From Gordonia sp. (in: high G+C Gram-positive bacteria) (GTDB taxonomy: Bacteria > Actinomycetota > Actinomycetes > Mycobacteriales > Mycobacteriaceae), in assembly GCA_047605505.1 (NCBI GenBank), contig JASGFO010000001.1:1703-65702 (forward strand): a stretch of 64,000 nucleotides of DNA, written 5' to 3'. Every line of letters starts with the position of its first letter. The stretch's first letter is position 1. The notes under the pieces were generated by a model that searched no databases, had not been told where the DNA came from, and was given only the letters and a program-made list of their open reading frames with translations. Shown piece by piece: positions 8,510 through 36,907 of the stretch. Both the position numbers and the translations under genes were made by a program.

Positions 8510-9745
8510 GTGACATCTACCGGAGGAGCCGCGCACCCCGACTGCGCACGCACCGGCGCCCGTGGCGGCCGCCTCCACATCGTCGTCCTGACGATCGCCT
8601 GTGACCCGTTCCACCGCGCGGCACTGAGATATGGTCTGTCGGCCGTCCTGCGCGCCGCCCAGCAGTCGATGCAGACGATCGCCCACCGATTGGGCAATGA
8701 CGCCGTCGTGACCCGGGTCGCCGAGTCGCGGTGGCGGGTCGCCGTCCGGCTGCGGGGCGCCTCGCGGGCCCAGCTGTACGGCAACCTCGAGAAGGTGCTG
8801 TCGCTGGTGGTGCGTGACTCGGATCCCACCGATCGCTATCTCGACTGTCATGTCGGGGTGGCCGTGGAACCCGAGCTCCCCGGTGTCGCGCGGACCGACC
8901 TTGCCGACTATGCCGACGCCGCGCTGAGTCTCGGTCTCCGGGCCCGCCACCGGATCCGGTTCGCCGGCCGCGCCGACGTGGCGGCCATCCGTGACTCCGT
9001 CGACCTGGCCACCCGCCTGCGGCAGGCGGCGCTCGACGACTTCCCGCTCGTCTATCAGCCGATCGTGCGGCTGTCCGATCGTGCGGTCCTGGGCTTCGAG
9101 TCGCTGTTGCGCTGGCGCGAGGGACCGACCCTGCATACGCCCGGGAACTTTCTCGCCGAGGCCGAGATGTCGTGGCGCGTCGTCGAGATGGGTCGTCAGA
9201 CGGTACCGGTCGCGGTCGGCGCGCTGGCCACCGAGCTGGCCTCGCTGTGCACGGGTGACGCCCCGTTCGTGACGATCAACCTGTCGGCGCAGCAGCTGCT
9301 GGATCCGCGGTTGACGTCGATCATCGCCACCGCCCTCGACCGCCACGACATTGCCCCGCATCAGCTCTGGATCGAGGTGCGCGAGGACACCGCCATCGCC
9401 CGCGACTCGCGGGCGTCGACCACCATCGGCCAATTGCACAAGCTCGGCTGCCGGATCGGCATCGATGATCTCGGTGCGGGCTATTCGGCGCTCACCTACA
9501 TTCGTGACCTGCCGATCGACATCCTCAAGCTGGATCGCTCACTGGTGACCAGGGTCGCCGACGATCCACTCAGCGCGGTGGTGATGACGGCGATCTGTCA
9601 GATGGCGGCCGCCGCGGGCATCACCACCGTCGCCGAGGGAATCGAATCCGAGGATCTGATTCCCCCGCTGGAGGAGTACGGGATCGACTACGCACAGGGT
9701 TTCTTGTTCGGCCGGCCGGCGTTCCCGGCAGAATTGGTCGGGTGA
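8510..9745 (+). CDS. EAL-domain c-di-GMP phosphodiesterase with a degenerate GGDEF-like N-terminus
   Basis: YQPIV, ESLLRW, INLS, IEVRE, DDLGAGYS, LKLDRS, AEGIE, AQGFLF. TATGCT 6 nt upstream of GTG 8510. Confidence 0.88.
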   Translation: MTSTGGAAHPDCARTGARGGRLHIVVLTIACDPFHRAALRYGLSAVLRAAQQSMQTIAHRLGNDAVVTRVAESRWRVAVRLRGASRAQLYGNLEKVLSLVVRDSDPTDRYLDCHVGVAVEPELPGVARTDLADYADAALSLGLRARHRIRFAGRADVAAIRDSVDLATRLRQAALDDFPLVYQPIVRLSDRAVLGFESLLRWREGPTLHTPGNFLAEAEMSWRVVEMGRQTVPVAVGALATELASLCTGDAPFVTINLSAQQLLDPRLTSIIATALDRHDIAPHQLWIEVREDTAIARDSRASTTIGQLHKLGCRIGIDDLGAGYSALTYIRDLPIDILKLDRSLVTRVADDPLSAVVMTAICQMAAAAGITTVAEGIESEDLIPPLEEYGIDYAQGFLFGRPAFPAELVG

Positions 9746-12153
9746 TCGTCTCGCCGTCCACCGAACATCCCGAGAGCGGACCTCAGATCCCGGTGGTCTC
9801 CCCGGTCGGCCCCGATGGCGACCGGCATGTGGTCGTCAATCAGCATTCGACGGTCCTGGGCATGCCGCGGTTCGCCGCGGCGGCCGAGCGGAGGTTCCGG
9901 GCCGCCTTCGCGGCCGCGGGCGCACAGACGCGGCGCGAGCTGCAGGCGGCTGCCGTCGCCCTCCTGGCGGTGATCGCGGTGATCGAGTTGACCACGGCGC
10001 ACCGGCCGCTCAATGGAGTCACGCTGGTCGCCGTGCTGGGGCTCGCGATGGCGGCCCAGGTCGGATCCTATCTGTGGGGTCGGCGGCCGGACCGGCGTGA
10101 TTCGGTGCTCGGGCTGATCGTGTTCGTGATGGCGTCCTCGATCACCCTGGTCTGTGTGCTCGTCGTGCATGTGGCGGGTGCGATCGCCGGGCACAGTGAT
10201 ATCCCGCTGATCGTGCTGACCGGGTTGATCCTGGGCATTCTGCTTGCGCGCCTGACCTTTCCGGTCGCGTTGACGATCACCGTGGCGTATTCGGCGACTG
10301 TCGACGTCGCCGAGTATCTGGCGGTCGGGCAGCTCCCGCACGAGTTGGCGGACGTGACGGTGTCGGTGACCGTGGTCGCCATCGCGACGGCGACGGCGTG
10401 GGAACGCGAGTTCGTCAGCCGGGTGCGGTGGTCGCAGGAACGCCGGATCGCGATGCTCAACGAATCCGATCCGCTCACCCGGATCGCCAACCGCATGCAT
10501 TTCGCCACGTCCCTGAGTGATGCCGTCGACGCGGAGGTGCCGATCACGGTGTTCGTCGCCGATGTCGGCGGATTCAAGCAGTACAACGACGACCACGGCC
10601 ATCCGGCCGGTGACGAGGTCCTGCGGGCGGTGGCGCTGTGTCTGCAGGAGGCAACCGGCGACGACGAGGCACTGGTCGCGCGGATCGCGGGCAAGAGGTT
10701 CGCGGTGCTCTGGCGCGCTACCGGGACCCGCGCCGACGAGCTGCGGCGGACGGTGGCGGCGACCTTGGACATGATCGCGGGCCCGCAGGATCGGCTGAGC
10801 GCGGCCGCGGGGGTCGCCGAGTGGCACCCCGATGAACACGCGATCGGGGCCGCGGAGCTGTTGCAGCGCGCCGAGGGGGCGCTCGTGCTGGCCAAGCGGT
10901 CCGGCGGTGATCGGCTGGTCGTCGCGCGGCCCGGTGATCGGGTGCCGCTGGTCACGGCACCACACCTGGACGACGATCCCGCGCACAGCGGGCCACAGCA
11001 CCCGTGTCCGCATCCGCTGCGGGTGACGTGGCGTTCGCTGTCGTTCGCGACGGCGGCGGAAGCCGCCTTTCGCACGGAATTCGACGAGGAGGCGCTGCGC
11101 GCGCGGGCGATGGTGCTGCTGGGCGTGGTGATCATGTCTGTCGGGACGCTCCTCATCGGCCGGTCGTTCGTGGGCATCCCGGGCGCGGCGATGACGGTGT
11201 TGACCCCGACCCTGCTCGGCGTTCAGATCCCGGTGGCGCTGGCCGGTCTCACGGCGCTGGCGTTGCCTGCACTGCGGCGGTGGTCGGCGCCGATCTTCCT
11301 TGCTGTCATCGTCGTGTGCTGGGCCGCGGTGGTCGTCGACAACGCGATTCTGACCACCCGCGATGCCGATGTCATCCCGGTCATCGCACCGGTCTCGTTG
11401 ATCCTGAGTGTGGCGATGGCGCACATCGTCATGCGGCTGGCCGTCCCCGCAGGCGTCGGCATGATGGTGGTGACCGTCGGGGCGGAGCTCGCGGCCGGGC
11501 CGCTGACGCCGCTCCGGCTGTTCACAGCGCTGGCCGCGGCAACCATGTGCGTGCTCGCGATCCGTTCGGCCTTCCGGCTGGAGCACCTGCACCGTATTCG
11601 GTGGCGGCGGTCGCAGCATCTGGCGTTCCTGAGCCAGACCGATCTGCTCACCAAGCTGGTCAACCGCCGCGGTTTCGAGGCGCGCCTACACGGGTTGATC
11701 ACCACCGGCCGTGACATCACCCTCATGCTGCTGGACATCGACTCCTTCGGCGCCTACAACCGGACCTTTGGCTATGCCTCCGGTGATGCCTGCCTGCAGC
11801 GGATCGGCCGGTACCTCGCGGCGTCGGGAACCGACGATGTGGTGGTCGCGCGGGTCGGTGGGGAGGAGTTTGCGGTGGTCATCGCGGATCGGCAGGCCGA
11901 TGCCGCGTGTGCGCTCGCCCGGTCGATCTGGGCCGGTCTGCCGGGTCTGCAGATTCCGGCAGCGACGGCGGGTGTGGTCACCGCATCGGCGGGGGTCGCC
12001 GTGCATGCGGCCGCCACCCCCGAGATCGATGCCCGGGCCGTCGCCGATCAGCTGTTCGCCGAGGCCGATTGTGCGCTCTATCGCGCCAAACGGGCAGGCC
12101 GCAATCAGTTGCGGTTCGCCGCCACCGACCACCGCGAACGGGCCGTTGGATAG
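9742..12153 (+). CDS. Membrane protein with a duplicated TM-GGDEF unit (TM-GGDEF*-TM-GGEEF)
   Basis: Domain 1 DPLTRIANR..FKQYND..GH..GD..RIAGKRF; domain 2 DLLTKLVNRR..DIDSF..RVGGEEF..ALYRAKRAGRN. Each is preceded by a multi-TM block. Start overlaps the EAL gene stop (GTGA). Confidence 0.88.
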   Translation: MIVSPSTEHPESGPQIPVVSPVGPDGDRHVVVNQHSTVLGMPRFAAAAERRFRAAFAAAGAQTRRELQAAAVALLAVIAVIELTTAHRPLNGVTLVAVLGLAMAAQVGSYLWGRRPDRRDSVLGLIVFVMASSITLVCVLVVHVAGAIAGHSDIPLIVLTGLILGILLARLTFPVALTITVAYSATVDVAEYLAVGQLPHELADVTVSVTVVAIATATAWEREFVSRVRWSQERRIAMLNESDPLTRIANRMHFATSLSDAVDAEVPITVFVADVGGFKQYNDDHGHPAGDEVLRAVALCLQEATGDDEALVARIAGKRFAVLWRATGTRADELRRTVAATLDMIAGPQDRLSAAAGVAEWHPDEHAIGAAELLQRAEGALVLAKRSGGDRLVVARPGDRVPLVTAPHLDDDPAHSGPQHPCPHPLRVTWRSLSFATAAEAAFRTEFDEEALRARAMVLLGVVIMSVGTLLIGRSFVGIPGAAMTVLTPTLLGVQIPVALAGLTALALPALRRWSAPIFLAVIVVCWAAVVVDNAILTTRDADVIPVIAPVSLILSVAMAHIVMRLAVPAGVGMMVVTVGAELAAGPLTPLRLFTALAAATMCVLAIRSAFRLEHLHRIRWRRSQHLAFLSQTDLLTKLVNRRGFEARLHGLITTGRDITLMLLDIDSFGAYNRTFGYASGDACLQRIGRYLAASGTDDVVVARVGGEEFAVVIADRQADAACALARSIWAGLPGLQIPAATAGVVTASAGVAVHAAATPEIDARAVADQLFAEADCALYRAKRAGRNQLRFAATDHRERAVG

Positions 12154-34488: not shown

Positions 34489-35649
34489 GTGATCATCTTC
34501 GACATCCGCACCCTGCTGTGCGTCGTCGCCGTCACCGAGCTGCTGTTGGGCGTGGTGATGGCGATGCACGGAGTCCGCAATCCGGCCTCCGGGGCGATGC
34601 GCACCTGGGCTGTGGCCAGTGCGCTCACCGCCGTCGGGTGGCTGCTCGTGGGTCTGCGTGACCTGGCCCCGGACTGGCTCTCGGTCGGCCTCGCCGACGC
34701 CGTCCTCATCGGCGCCCTGATGCTGGTGGTGGCCGGTATGCGGCAGTTCACCGGCCGACGCTTGTCGTGGGCCCTGGTACCCGCGCCGTCGCTCGCTGTG
34801 GTCCTGGTCACCGCCGTCTCGCCGATCCGCGACAACCTGGGCGCCCGGGTGGTCCTCGTCAACCTCTGCCTGATCGCCTTGCTCCTCGTGCTCGCGCGCG
34901 ACGCCTGCCGCGATCAACGCATCGAACCGCTGGCGGCGCGCCGGTTCTTCCTCACCGCGCTCGCCGTGGCCGTGCTGGCCAACGCCGTCACGGCCGGGTA
35001 CGCCTGCCACCTCGCGCCGACGACAACCTTCCTCACCGCGGGCACCGTCCAGGAGATCGGCATCTTCGTCCAGGGTGCGGCGCTACTGGGCGGCAACCTG
35101 GGCATGTTCCTCATGGCGCAGGAACGGCTCGTGAACCAGCTGCGCGATGCCGCACACCGCGATGCCCTGACCGAGGTGCTGAACCGCCGCGGATTCGCCG
35201 AGGCCGCGACCGGCCTGCTGACCGGTCAGGCCAGGACATCGCAGCAGATGGCGGTGCTGCTGCTGGACCTGGACGGATTCAAGGCGATCAACGACACCCA
35301 CGGGCACACGGTGGGCGACTGCCTGCTGCGCGCCTGCGCCAAGGAACTGTCCTCGCAGCAGCGGCCCGGTGAACTGGTGGGCCGCTACGGCGGCGACGAG
35401 TTCTGCGCGCTGCTGCTGACCAGCGGTCCCGCCGAGACCCGGGCCCGCGCCGAGCAGCTGCGCCGCCGGATCACCGACCTGCTGGTGACCGCCCGCGGCG
35501 AACTGGTCTGCGCGACCGCGTCCGTCGGCGTCGCCGAGGTGCGCGATCCGGCGGCGGTCTCGGTGGTCGAGGCGCTCGCCGAGGCCGATCAGGCGCTCTA
35601 CCGCGCCAAGCGCGGCGGCCGCGACCGCGTGTGCATGATCAGCGCGTGA
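34489..35649 (+). CDS. Membrane-bound diguanylate cyclase
   Basis: About 7 TM helices, then DALT..LNRR, DLDGFKAINDTHGH..GD, RYGGDEF, ALYRAKRGGRD. GGAGGA RBS. Confidence 0.92.
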   Translation: MIIFDIRTLLCVVAVTELLLGVVMAMHGVRNPASGAMRTWAVASALTAVGWLLVGLRDLAPDWLSVGLADAVLIGALMLVVAGMRQFTGRRLSWALVPAPSLAVVLVTAVSPIRDNLGARVVLVNLCLIALLLVLARDACRDQRIEPLAARRFFLTALAVAVLANAVTAGYACHLAPTTTFLTAGTVQEIGIFVQGAALLGGNLGMFLMAQERLVNQLRDAAHRDALTEVLNRRGFAEAATGLLTGQARTSQQMAVLLLDLDGFKAINDTHGHTVGDCLLRACAKELSSQQRPGELVGRYGGDEFCALLLTSGPAETRARAEQLRRRITDLLVTARGELVCATASVGVAEVRDPAAVSVVEALAEADQALYRAKRGGRDRVCMISA

Positions 35650-36907
35650 CGTCGTCGATCGTTCGCTGCGGTCGGCCGAACAGATATCCCTGCAGGTAGT
35701 CGAAGCCGAGCTCACCCAGGATCGGCAGACACTCGGCGGTCTCCACCCCCTCGGCGACCAGACGGATGTCGTTGGTCTTGGCGACGTTGGCGATGGCCTG
35801 GACCACGGCATGCGCAGCAGGATCGGTCATCAGGTCATCGATCAGCGTCTTGTCGACCTTGACGACGTCGATGGGCAGGTCCCGCAGATACCGCAGGGCC
35901 GAGAACCCCGAACCGAGATCGTCGACGCAGATCGTGCAGCCGAGCTCGTGGAGGCCCTCGATCACCGCGGCCTCCTCCGAGCCCACCCGGACCACGTCGT
36001 TCTCCCGGATCTCGATCCACAACCGGCTCGCCTCGACGCCGACGGCGGCAATCGCATCGCGGATGTCGGCGACGAGGTTGCGATCCCACAGCTGCTGCAC
36101 CGACAGGTTGACCGCGACGAAGCCGTCGCGGTGCCGGGCGGAGACCTCACCGGCGAGCATGGCCAGCGCCTCGGTGACCACATGACGTCCGATCGGGACG
36201 ATGAGGTCAGACTCCTCGGCGGCGGGCAGGAACTTGTCCGGCGAGAGCAGCCCGTCATCGGTCTGCCACCGCACCAGCGCCTCATAGCCGGCCACCGCGT
36301 GGCCGGCGAGCGCGACGATCGGCTGGTAGACGAGCGGGAAGTCGGTGACCTCCGACCGGGTGAGCCGATCCATGAGCTCCACCTGTGCCCGCAGCGCGGG
36401 CAGTGTCTCGGCCGTCGCGAACTGCATGTTGTGGCCGCCGAGCAGAGCAGCACTGAGTGCCGCGTCCGCGCAGGCCTCCAGTTCCGCCTTGTCGGCGGGG
36501 AGCTCGTCGGCGATCGCGATGCCGATGGTGACGTCCAGGTGCGGACCGTCCTGATCGCCGTCGAGCAGCCAGCGCAGCTCGCCCTCGCCCGATTCGTCAT
36601 CGCCGGCGTGCGGGTCGAGGTAGACGAGCCATTCGAGGTCGCCGCGCCGGACGCTGACCAGCGCCGGTCCACCCTGCCGGACCAATGCGGCCATGACCTG
36701 CTCGGCGACCCGCACGGCCTCCGCCCGCCCGTGTGCGGCGGTCAGCCGACGCCAGGGGTCGGCGACCACCGCCGCGACGATCATCGGGCTCGACGGGCGC
36801 TCCTCCGCCGTCCCCGCCGCGCCCACGGCCACGGCCGCGCCGGGGACGGTGATGGCGGGGACGATCTTGGTGAATACCGGCAGTCGGCTCAAGACGACCG
36901 TTTGCAC
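35639..36907 (-). CDS. EAL-domain phosphodiesterase with a degenerate GGDEF-like N-terminus (start uncertain: 36784, 36907 or 36952)
   Basis: DFPLVYQPIV, EALVRW, VNLS, IEIRE, DDLGSGFS, KVDK, AEGVE, LQGYLF. Confidence 0.85.
   Translation of the reverse strand: MQTVVLSRLPVFTKIVPAITVPGAAVAVGAAGTAEERPSSPMIVAAVVADPWRRLTAAHGRAEAVRVAEQVMAALVRQGGPALVSVRRGDLEWLVYLDPHAGDDESGEGELRWLLDGDQDGPHLDVTIGIAIADELPADKAELEACADAALSAALLGGHNMQFATAETLPALRAQVELMDRLTRSEVTDFPLVYQPIVALAGHAVAGYEALVRWQTDDGLLSPDKFLPAAEESDLIVPIGRHVVTEALAMLAGEVSARHRDGFVAVNLSVQQLWDRNLVADIRDAIAAVGVEASRLWIEIRENDVVRVGSEEAAVIEGLHELGCTICVDDLGSGFSALRYLRDLPIDVVKVDKTLIDDLMTDPAAHAVVQAIANVAKTNDIRLVAEGVETAECLPILGELGFDYLQGYLFGRPQRTIDDVTR

What the first reader, a model, noticed from the sequence alone, without database searches (positions are those of the whole stretch)
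9742..12153. Tandem TM-GGDEF protein with complementary degeneracy: a pseudo-heterodimeric nucleotide cyclase
Seen: the protein is an internal duplication; both halves begin with a similar F.(A/T)AAE..FR..F segment, then a TM block, then a GGDEF domain. Domain 1 keeps FKQYND..GH..GD but has AGKRF instead of GGDEF and lacks the terminal GRN arginine. Domain 2 keeps DID, GGEEF and AK..GRN but has FGAYNR, losing the Lys. Established: in PleD, D327/E370 bind metal, K442/R446 bind phosphates, N335/D344 bind guanine, and K332 is proposed to act across the dimer. Mammalian adenylyl cyclases use an M1-C1-M2-C2 layout with one complete site. Inference: the two halves form a single composite active site. 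It may make only one phosphodiester bond per cycle (linear pppGpG or a non-canonical dinucleotide), or use the dead site allosterically.
Basis: partly seen in the sequence, partly recalled or inferred. Interest (0 to 1): 0.8.

Follow-up and report, generated by a model that had tools for sequence, protein, structure and literature searches.

The report
Fused double diguanylate cyclase, one half-site rebuilt
This Gordonia membrane protein is two c-di-GMP synthase units fused head to tail, laid out like an animal adenylyl cyclase. One of its two mirror-image reaction centres has been deliberately rebuilt rather than left to decay, so it is a natural test case for how these enzymes make their two bonds.

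Summary
ORF 9742-12153 (+) encodes 803 aa made of two 6TM-GGDEF units: D1 has AGKRF and FKQYND, D2 has GGEEF and FGAYNR.

- **Unit type:** each unit is an ImcA-type 6TM diguanylate cyclase (PDB 8WCN), which works as a homodimer.
- **Predicted structure:** the AlphaFold2 model (pLDDT 87.7, pTM 0.84) packs the two TM blocks like the 12-TM domain of human adenylyl cyclase 9 (Z 26.4, rmsd 3.5 Å, 382 residues).
- **Family:** the fused layout is widespread. In 87 of 90 tandem proteins both GGDEF domains are intact.
- **Asymmetric clade:** only this protein and two Gordonia amarae paralogs (38-43% identical) carry the pattern, and all three keep it. The AGKRF block is the most conserved 15-mer in the protein, so D1 is not decaying at random.
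- **Residue logic:** on the published DgcR Michaelis-complex model, where the K332 equivalent acts on the opposing substrate, every changed residue falls in one half-site. Every residue of the other half-site is canonical.

Best reading (0.5): a single-chain pseudo-heterodimer with one live half-reaction. D2 is catalytic and D1 holds a guanine nucleotide. The product (linear pppGpG, or c-di-GMP after rebinding) is untested.

This scan had already noted the 12-TM double-cyclase layout on other DNA (e1-4252683). The rebuilt half-site is new here.

The parts
9742..12153 (+). Whole gene: 803-aa 6TM-GGDEF-6TM-GGDEF protein. The GTG start overlaps the upstream stop (GTGA).
   Evidence: The N-terminal extension is conserved with the G. 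amarae homolog.
9871..9909 (+). Juxtamembrane motif of unit 1 (F44-F56, F.AAAE..FR..F).
   Evidence: E49 invariant. The same segment precedes TM1 in ImcA (alignment).
9937..10464 (+). TM block 1: six helices (residues 66-221) plus the cytoplasmic extension of TM6, the hinge helix to residue 241.
   Evidence: Hydropathy. AF2 helices H46-241. Superposes on the AC9 TM domain.
10465..10932 (+). GGDEF domain 1 (D1), catalytically rebuilt. The guanine pocket and K279 (=PleD K332) are kept. D276G (DxD), AGKRF, E378 (for D435), V382 (for Y439) and G389 (for R446) are changed.
   Evidence: pLDDT about 90.
10573..10590 (+). D1 F278-K-Q-Y-N-D283: Lys 332, Asn 335 and Asp 336 equivalents retained.
   Evidence: K is present in 90 of 90 tandem D1 domains.
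10687..10701 (+). D1 A316-G-K-R-F320 replacing GGEEF. It sits in the most conserved 15-mer of the protein across the three clade members.
   Evidence: 13 of 15 three-way identical, against 224 of 803 overall.
10933..11043 (+). Flexible D1-to-unit-2 linker (residues 398-434), of low model confidence.
   Evidence: pLDDT below 50 at residues 408-419; 31-38% identity in the clade.
11044..11082 (+). Juxtamembrane motif of unit 2 (F435-F447).
   Evidence: R444 invariant.
11098..11634 (+). TM block 2: six helices (residues 453-611) plus the hinge helix to residue 631. The hinge is the best conserved non-catalytic segment.
   Evidence: (hinge2 55-80% identity).
11635..12111 (+). GGDEF domain 2 (D2). 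The metal, phosphate and guanine residues are canonical. The alpha-1 face is changed: G670 (K332), R674 (D336), Y678 (H340).
11746..11763 (+). D2 F669-G-A-Y-N-R674 (K332 to G, D336 to R).
11857..11871 (+). D2 G706-G-E-E-F710, the intact signature motif.
8510..9745 (+). Upstream, translationally coupled gene: a 411-aa degenerate-GGDEF (AESRW) + EAL protein with EAL catalytic motifs present by eye. A possible partner, not part of the enzyme itself.
   Evidence: Adjacency is not conserved beside homologs.

Best explanation
The protein is a single-chain, 12-TM pseudo-heterodimeric GGDEF cyclase.

**Origin.** It descends from an ImcA-type 6TM-GGDEF enzyme that works as a homodimer. Tandem fusion put both subunits in one chain, and that fused family is widespread with both domains intact.

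**Architecture.** The two TM blocks pair within the chain, as in animal membrane adenylyl cyclases. The two long hinge helices present D1 and D2 to each other.

**What changed in this clade.** In this small Gordonia clade one of the two symmetric half-sites was rebuilt. That half-site is formed by D1's GGEEF hairpin and C-terminal helix together with the alpha-1 face of D2.
- D1: EE to KR, DxD to DxG, D435 to E, Y439 lost, R446 lost.
- D2: K332 to G, D336 to R.

The other half-site is untouched. It comprises D2's metal ligands, K442 and R446, together with D1's K332, D336 and H340 face and D1's guanine pocket.

**Inferred mechanism.** D1 holds a guanine nucleotide without Mg, with Lys and Arg standing in for the metals. 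That nucleotide's 3'-OH attacks the alpha-phosphate of Mg-GTP bound in D2. The reverse attack cannot occur. One encounter therefore makes one phosphodiester bond, giving pppGpG. c-di-GMP would need the intermediate to rebind flipped in the same site, as in cGAS- or DncV-type enzymes.

**Shown versus inferred.**
- Shown: the duplication, the residue states and their conservation.
- Predicted by the model: the intrachain pairing of the two TM blocks.
- Inferred: the D1:D2 pairing geometry, nucleotide binding by D1, and the product.
For: **Unit identity and architecture**
- Unit 2 matches ImcA (8WCN) over residues 418-797, E 5e-23. The fold match has TM-score 0.73.
- ImcA is a homodimer held by its 6TM domains.
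- The AF2 model has pLDDT 87.7 and pTM 0.84.
- Model residues 46-632 (both TM blocks) superpose on the human AC9 TM domain at Z 26.4, rmsd 3.5 Å, 382 residues, and on AC5 at Z 23.7.

**Family survey**
- Of 90 tandem proteins, 87 have both domains intact, and K332 is present in 90 of 90 D1 domains.

**Conservation in the clade**
- The AGKRF and FG.YNR states are shared by three lineages at 38-43% identity.
- The AGKRF block is the most conserved 15-mer.
- The N-terminal half of D1 is as conserved (52-59%) as in intact relatives.
- D1's guanine-pocket residues are invariant.

**Published model**
- DgcR K179 (=K332) and metal M2 act on the substrate of the opposing domain.
- D183 (=D336) and D282 (=D435) may contact Y286 (=Y439) and H187 (=H340) across the dimer.
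- Mapped on this model, all changed residues fall in one half-site and all residues of the other are canonical.

**K332G distribution**
- In this sample K332G is never seen in single-GGDEF (homodimeric) proteins, 0 of 148. It appears only in multi-GGDEF proteins, 10 of 134 later domains plus one degenerate first domain.
Against: - Ground-state structures place the K332 equivalent on its own beta-phosphate in cis: ImcA K273 and PleD bound to (p)ppGpp. If that is its only role, D2 has lost a cis residue and the losses are not complementary.
- K332G always co-occurs with D336K/R. It also does so in soluble tandem GGDEF proteins whose changes do not follow the same half-site partition. The D2 change may be an intradomain charge relocation.
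- One G. amarae paralog (P0003) also has R446 to G in D2 and R300 to S in D1.
- The clade is a single evolutionary event with three sequences.
- Model coordinates could not be read, so D1:D2 contacts were not measured.
- No biochemical data exist.
Confidence: 0.5

Rival explanations
1. D1 is only a regulatory or scaffolding pseudo-domain, for example a GTP or other nucleotide sensor like the degenerate GGDEF of PdeA. Catalysis is ordinary c-di-GMP synthesis between the D2 domains of two chains in a dimer of 12-TM proteins.
For: Degenerate GGDEF domains commonly act as sensors (established knowledge). D2 keeps GGEEF, D327, K442 and R446. A dimeric form of a 12-TM adenylyl cyclase exists (8sl4). 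D1's pocket is conserved.
Against: A D2:D2' pair would lack the K332-equivalent on both sides. That residue is present in 145 of 148 single-GGDEF proteins sampled and is never Gly there. The fused family with both domains intact argues that D1:D2 is the working pair. The D1 residues that changed are the ones that would face D2 in the competent dimer.
Confidence: 0.17
2. The protein no longer makes any dinucleotide. Both sites are compromised (D1 lacks the EE pair, D2 lacks K332). It would act as a membrane receptor or scaffold for GTP or c-di-GMP, perhaps controlling the co-translated EAL phosphodiesterase.
For: The upstream degenerate-GGDEF/EAL gene overlaps the start codon. The ImcA-IsmP precedent shows a DGC paired with an EAL-type partner. 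The K332 equivalent is nearly invariant in active-looking domains.
Against: D2's metal, phosphate and base residues are all kept across 38-43% identity. No RxxD I-site is present in either domain (sequence). EAL adjacency is not conserved beside the G. amarae paralogs.
Confidence: 0.15
3. D2's K-to-G and D-to-R change is a neutral relocation of the basic side chain one helical turn along alpha-1. D2 would then be a fully normal half-site and the D1 change an unrelated event. There is no functional complementarity, though there is still only one live metal site.
For: In all 10 cases with Gly at position 332, position 336 is K, R or N. Cis contact of the Lys with the beta-phosphate is seen in two structures.
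Against: If the swap were neutral it should also appear in homodimeric DGCs, yet it is 0 of 148 in single-GGDEF proteins here (the sample is biased). D336's proposed cross-dimer partner Y439 is lost in D1 of all three clade members.
Confidence: 0.13
4. D1 is a decaying relic and the gene is on its way to becoming a pseudogene.
For: D1 sits on a long branch in the domain tree (root-to-tip 2.26 against a median of 1.51). Its C-terminal third is only 31-35% identical within the clade.
Against: The ORF is intact with GC3 0.86. AGKRF is the most conserved block. The N-terminal half of D1 is as conserved as in intact relatives. The model folds D1 with pLDDT about 90.
Confidence: 0.03

Closest known systems
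ImcA (Pseudomonas aeruginosa), 6TM-GGDEF diguanylate cyclase, PDB 8WCN (PMC10904736)
   Same: Each half of the window protein matches a whole ImcA subunit: the N-terminal juxtamembrane motif, six TM helices, a hinge and a GGEEF domain. ImcA also has an EAL-type partner protein, IsmP.
   Different: ImcA is a homodimer of identical chains with two equal half-sites. Here the two subunits are fused in one chain, and one half-site is rebuilt (AGKRF and the associated changes).
Animal membrane adenylyl cyclases (AC9, AC8, AC5; M1-C1-M2-C2) and their homodimeric bacterial relatives
   Same: They share the 6TM-catalytic-6TM-catalytic order. The 12-TM bundle and two hinge helices superpose at rmsd 3.5 Å over 382 residues. 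Both have a palm-type catalytic fold. Both show one live and one degenerate site derived from a symmetric dimer.
   Different: The catalytic domains here are GGDEF (PF00990), not class III cyclase homology domains. Whole-chain superposition is poor, at rmsd about 14 Å. A GGDEF pair joins two nucleotides rather than cyclising one.
Intact 12-TM double diguanylate cyclases (for example P0005, P0006 of Gordonia shandongensis, an Aquabacterium sp. MAG protein, and this genome's own paralog L020)
   Same: They have the same fused architecture and a common origin. D2 of the window protein nests inside their D2 clade with support 0.95.
   Different: In 87 of 90 tandem proteins tabulated, which include these, both domains carry the canonical residues. 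Only the window protein and two G. amarae paralogs have the asymmetric set.
Degenerate GGDEF sensor domains (PdeA/CC3396 GTP sensor, FimX, LapD, PelD)
   Same: D1 is a non-catalytic GGDEF domain. Like the GTP-sensing type, it keeps the guanine pocket.
   Different: D1 has no RxxD I-site. It is paired with a live GGDEF rather than an EAL domain. Its replacement motif is itself strongly conserved, and the changes are matched by changes on the partner domain.

Membership tests
GGDEF diguanylate cyclase (PF00990 / TIGR00254) | GGDEF-domain fold | tested here: met
   There are two Pfam stretches, E 2.7e-55. TIGR00254 scores above its cut-off. D2 superposes on WspR, PleD and others at Z 21-24, rmsd 1.6-2.6 Å. 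D1 has pLDDT about 90.
GGDEF diguanylate cyclase (PF00990 / TIGR00254) | GG(D/E)EF with metal-binding acidic residues plus D327 | tested here: met
   Met in D2 (D665, E708, E709). Not met in D1 (K318, R319).
GGDEF diguanylate cyclase (PF00990 / TIGR00254) | Guanine-binding Asn335 and Asp344 | tested here: met
   D1 has N282 and D291; D2 has N673 and D682.
GGDEF diguanylate cyclase (PF00990 / TIGR00254) | Two complete half-sites in the working dimer | tested here: not met
   If D1:D2 is the working pair, only one half-site has the canonical residues.
GGDEF diguanylate cyclase (PF00990 / TIGR00254) | Synthesis of c-di-GMP from 2 GTP | not testable with these tools
   This needs an enzyme assay.
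ImcA-type 6TM-GGDEF | Sequence and fold match over the whole unit, including the 6TM domain | tested here: met
   phmmer to 8wcn_A covers residues 418-797 against 31-415, E 5e-23. Foldseek TM-score 0.73. Six helices per unit.
ImcA-type 6TM-GGDEF | Dimerisation through the 6TM domains | tested here: inconclusive
   The model packs TM block 1 against TM block 2 in one chain (pTM 0.84; AC9-like). There are no coordinates or experiment to compare with the ImcA interface.
Class III membrane adenylyl cyclase (M1-C1-M2-C2) | 12-TM pseudo-dimeric membrane domain with two hinge helices | tested here: met
   Model against 9u3s: Z 26.4, rmsd 3.5 Å, 382 of 425 residues. Against 8sl3: Z 23.7.
Class III membrane adenylyl cyclase (M1-C1-M2-C2) | Class III cyclase homology catalytic domains | tested here: not met
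   Pfam and NCBIfam report only GGDEF. The protein works like this family in layout but is not a member.
Hypr GGDEF (cGAMP-making) | Ser in place of the guanine-specifying Asp344, and loss of the cross-dimer Arg | tested here: not met
   Both domains have Asp. R300 equivalents R251 and R642 are present.
I-site c-di-GMP receptor-type degenerate GGDEF (PelD, LapD-like) | RxxD motif five residues before the signature motif | tested here: not met
   At the positions matching the PleD R359-D362 RxxD motif, D1 reads D-D-E-A and D2 reads T-D-D-V (read directly).

The most novel reading that the evidence does not exclude
This is a natural single-half-site GGDEF enzyme. D1 is a metal-free holder for the acceptor nucleotide and D2 is the only catalytic centre. 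Its physiological product would be a linear 5'-triphosphorylated dinucleotide (pppGpG), or another product that a symmetric cyclase cannot make. That would be a new GGDEF-derived signal. It would also be an independent replay of the homodimer-to-pseudo-heterodimer evolution seen in animal adenylyl cyclases.
Probability: 0.2. Interest if true: 0.85.

Novelty: new variant of a known kind. Interest (0 to 1): 0.68.

Why it matters
Diguanylate cyclases are symmetric dimers, so a mutation always hits both half-reactions. That is why two points are still disputed between published models:
- the role of the invariant Lys (K332), in cis or in trans;
- the role of the fourth GGDEF residue, as general base or as metal ligand.

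A natural single-chain enzyme in which one half-site is canonical and the other is rebuilt separates the two reactions. That makes these questions directly testable.

It also shows that the route taken by animal adenylyl cyclases has been followed independently in the GGDEF world, on a membrane domain of the same fold. The route runs from homodimer to fused 12-TM pseudo-heterodimer to one degenerate site.

If the product is linear pppGpG, this would be a new nucleotide signal.

Tried and rejected
- **Conserved operon with the upstream EAL gene.** tblastn of the EAL, thioesterase and dehydrogenase neighbours against the homolog loci found no synteny. The G. amarae paralogs sit beside a glycosyltransferase, a MarR regulator and a SIR2-like gene.
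- **More members of the AGKRF clade.** A degenerate DNA pattern for AGKRFAVLW(R) was run against 185,579 species genomes and against the metagenome collection. It gave only the two G. amarae paralogs. The other nine genome hits are unrelated: four read as intact frames with no GGDEF-like sequence, and five fall in frames broken by stop codons.
- **Literature on tandem TM-GGDEF proteins.** Searches for 'tandem GGDEF', 'two GGDEF domains', 'GGDEF-GGDEF' and similar found only GGDEF-EAL tandems or dimers of separate chains. The library lacks most subscription journals, so this is not proof of absence.
- **Hypr (cGAMP) specificity and I-site receptor readings.** Both were rejected on sequence.
- **Testing whether the half-site partition generalises.** In the soluble tandem GGDEF family both faces of D2 are changed and D1 is canonical. 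The partition argument therefore holds only for the Gordonia clade.
- **Reading D1:D2 contacts from the model.** No coordinates are exposed. Whole-chain superposition on adenylyl cyclases is too loose to say anything (rmsd about 14 Å).
- **dN/dS.** Not attempted, because synonymous sites are saturated at about 41% protein identity.


Full report
**1.
- ORF 9742-12153 (+) encodes 803 residues, with GC3 0.86 in this frame.
- Pfam finds two GGDEF stretches.
- The halves align at 31% identity over 275 residues spanning the TM region and GGDEF, E 5e-24.
Six hydrophobic helices follow, at 66-221 and 453-611.
- D1 has F-K-Q-Y-N-D, H287, D291, AGKRF (316-320), and AKRSGG with G389 for the usual Arg.
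- D2 has D-I-D, F-G-A-Y-N-R (669-674), GGEEF (706-710) and K783...R787.
- The N-terminal 40 residues resemble those of the G. amarae homolog, so the GTG at 9742, which overlaps the upstream stop as GTGA, is a credible start.

**2. What one unit is.**
- Residues 418-797 match chain A of PDB 8WCN over its residues 31-415 (E 5e-23). The match includes the juxtamembrane motif and the TM region.
- 8WCN is ImcA of P. aeruginosa, a 6TM-GGDEF cyclase solved as a homodimer. The 6TM domains form the stable two-fold interface, and flexible hinges carry the GGDEF domains (PMC10904736).
- The window protein is therefore two ImcA-type subunits in one chain.

**3. Predicted architecture.**
- AlphaFold2 was run on an alignment of 78 tandem homologs (A2). 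It gave mean pLDDT 87.7 and pTM 0.84, with low confidence only at residues 1-22, 408-419 and the C-terminus.
- Foldseek ranks ImcA first (TM-score 0.73 on the target). Next come whole-length matches to mammalian AC8, AC9 and AC5.
- VIA-align superposes model residues 46-632, that is both TM blocks and both hinge helices, on the TM-domain entry of human AC9 (9u3s). The result is Z 26.4, rmsd 3.5 Å over 382 of 425 residues. AC5 (8sl3) gives Z 23.7, rmsd 3.7 Å.
- The model therefore places TM1-6 against TM7-12 within the chain, as in animal adenylyl cyclases.
- To my knowledge the AF2 weights predate the first mAC structure (my own knowledge, not tested here).
- Whole-chain rmsd is about 14 Å, so the catalytic domains are not arranged as C1/C2.
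- I could not read coordinates. D1:D2 contacts in the model are unmeasured.
- The ImcA paper does not mention adenylyl cyclases.

**4. The family.**
- A full scan of 1.84 billion representatives returned, among the best 150, about 70 proteins of 650-950 aa. Each has two GGDEF motifs about 400 residues apart.
- One cluster includes Aquabacterium MAG proteins, so the fused layout is not confined to actinobacteria.
- I tabulated 16 functional positions in both domains of 90 tandem proteins.
  - K332 is Lys in 90 of 90 D1 domains and 86 of 90 D2 domains.
  - The EE pair is replaced only in three D1 domains.
  - Gly at position 332 occurs only in the same three proteins.
- These three are the window protein and two paralogs of Gordonia amarae NBRC 15530, P0003 and P0004. 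They are 38-43% identical to the window protein and to each other.
- A DNA pattern for AGKRFAVLW found no further members in 185,579 species genomes or in the metagenome collection.
- The window genome is of the same genus and carries a second tandem paralog with intact motifs, AGDEF and GGEEF, cut by a contig end (L020).
- In a domain tree, the clade's D2 sits inside a D2-only group of 19 (support 0.95). The duplication therefore predates the clade. Its D1 is on a long branch.

**5. D1 is rebuilt, not decaying.**
- Across the three lineages, 224 of 803 positions are identical in all three.
- The most conserved 15-residue window of the whole protein is VAR(I/V)AGKRFAVLWR (13 of 15). The next is D1's HGH..GDEVLR block, which contains the guanine-binding Asp (11 of 15). 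D2's GGEEF block scores 9 of 15.
- Within the clade the N-terminal half of D1 is 52-59% identical. This equals the figure in catalytically intact relatives at similar divergence, 51-54%.
- The hydrophobic and polar residues of D1's base pocket are invariant across the six-sequence alignment: L245, F278, K279, N282, D291 and L294.

**6. Which half-site changed.** The literature gives two views of the Lys.
- In ground-state complexes it contacts its own nucleotide's phosphates: ImcA K273 and PleD K332 with (p)ppGpp.
[quoted passage not shown] D183 and D282 may contact Y286 and H187 across the dimer (PMC8041772).
- DgcR numbering plus 153 gives PleD numbering. This makes K179 = K332, D183 = D336, H187 = H340, D282 = D435 and Y286 = Y439.
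- Positions 332, 336 and 340 lie at i, i+4 and i+8 on helix alpha-1 (an inference from their spacing). In that model the alpha-1 residues of one domain face the opposing substrate and the opposing D435 and Y439.

Applied here:

| Half-site | Contribution from one domain | Contribution from the other domain | State |
|---|---|---|---|
| D1 alpha-1 face with D2 | D1: K279, D283, H287 | D2: E708, E709, D776, Y780, K783, R787 | entirely canonical |
| D2 alpha-1 face with D1 | D2: G670, R674, Y678 | D1: K318, R319, E378, V382, G389 | changed throughout |

- D1's K385 (=K442) is kept. It is not part of the changed set.
- Most of these replacements (KR, E378, G and R in D2) are conserved in all three lineages.
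- An alternative published model makes the fourth GGDEF residue a trans general base (PMC6456294). It gives the same outcome. D2's E709 can act on the D1-bound nucleotide, while D1's R319 cannot act on the D2-bound one.
- Exceptions: P0003 has S for the trans Arg (R300) in D1 and G for R446 in D2. H340 is unchanged in D2 of both G. amarae paralogs.

**7. A side result that cuts both ways.**
- I examined 409 GGDEF domains from the proteins fetched here. Gly at position 332 occurs:
  - in 0 of 148 domains of single-GGDEF proteins;
  - in 1 of 127 first domains, which is itself degenerate;
  - in 10 of 134 later domains.
- In those 10 later domains, position 336 is always K, R or N.
- Apart from the Gordonia clade, these are the second domains of soluble GGDEF-GGDEF proteins of 463-499 aa and the middle domain of P0208. 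They lie elsewhere in the domain tree.
- This suggests that a GGDEF can give up this Lys only when it is covalently paired, which fits a trans or asymmetric role.
- In the soluble family, however, both faces of D2 are altered and D1 is canonical. The tight 332/336 covariation may therefore be an intradomain charge effect.
- The sample is biased towards hits of a tandem query, and relatives are not independent.

**8. Context.**
- The upstream gene (8510-9745) encodes a soluble protein with a degenerate GGDEF (AESRW) and an EAL domain. It matches GGDEF-EAL phosphodiesterases over nearly its full length.
- The overlap of its stop with the start codon suggests co-translation. This recalls the ImcA-IsmP pair.
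- The adjacency is not conserved beside homologs.

**9. Mechanism and rivals.**

| Reading | Confidence |
|---|---|
| Single-chain pseudo-heterodimer with one live half-reaction | 0.5 |
| D1 only regulatory, catalysis between D2 domains of two chains | 0.17 |
| No catalysis: receptor or scaffold | 0.15 |
| D2 change a neutral charge relocation unrelated to D1 | 0.13 |
| Decay | 0.03 |

- Best reading: D1 holds a guanine nucleotide in a basic, metal-free pocket. That nucleotide's 3'-OH attacks Mg-GTP in D2.
- Whether pppGpG is released or rebinds flipped to give c-di-GMP is open.
- The D2:D2' rival would leave both half-sites without the Lys.

**10. Comparison and novelty.**
- By fold and motifs this is a GGDEF protein of the ImcA type. 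It works like a membrane adenylyl cyclase in layout but is not a member of that family.
- No NCBIfam equivalog passes its cut-off. I found no paper on fused TM-GGDEF pairs.
My independent tests agree with it.
- What is new here is the conserved, residue-by-residue rebuilding of one half-site.

Noticed in passing
window 8510-9745 (+): A 411-aa soluble protein with a degenerate GGDEF (AESRW in place of GGDEF) and an EAL domain whose catalytic motifs look intact. Its TGA overlaps the GTG start of the cyclase (GTGA). This recalls the ImcA-IsmP cyclase/EAL-partner module, but the adjacency is not conserved beside homologs.
   Followed up: partly
proteins P0197, P0203, P0209, P0231, P0234, P0251 (soluble, 463-499 aa) and P0208: These belong to a family of soluble GGDEF-GGDEF tandem proteins. 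The first domain is fully canonical. The second keeps the signature motif (GGEEF; GGEEL in P0197, GGEEM in P0209) but has Gly at the K332 position, K/R at D336, and a variable H340, D435 and Y439. In the 409 domains sampled, Gly at position 332 was never seen in single-GGDEF proteins.
   Followed up: partly
model m33899664d5a0 residues 46-632 against PDB 9u3s, 9u3q, 9u3v and 8sl3: The ImcA-type 6TM domain, paired as in the model, has the same fold and packing as the 12-TM domain of human adenylyl cyclases (Z 24-26, rmsd 3.5-3.9 Å). The ImcA structure paper does not mention this similarity.
   Followed up: partly
L020 (own genome, contig C294, bases 3-1730): A second tandem 6TM-GGDEF paralog in the same genome with intact motifs (AGDEF in D1, GGEEF in D2, canonical K and D). 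Its N-terminus is cut by the contig end. It would serve as a natural within-genome control.
   Followed up: partly
L013/L029 (Gordonia amarae paralog P0003), inside D2: A long low-complexity insertion with repeated GRACR-like units interrupts D2 between the last strand and the C-terminal helix. A second insertion precedes GGEEF. This paralog also has R446 to G in D2.
   Followed up: no
window about 34849-35652 (+): Another ImcA-like GGDEF match lies in the same window (30% identity to residues 520-797). The genome search reported it with one in-frame TGA inside the match. It may be two genes or a frameshift.
   Followed up: no
L021, L027, L028, L030: The peptide AGKRFAVLW also occurs in unrelated proteins (context ...GDDGLY...WF..SFLD...AGKRFAVLWE..GCPYC...) of several proteobacterial and acidobacterial MAGs. 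The resemblance appears coincidental.
   Followed up: no
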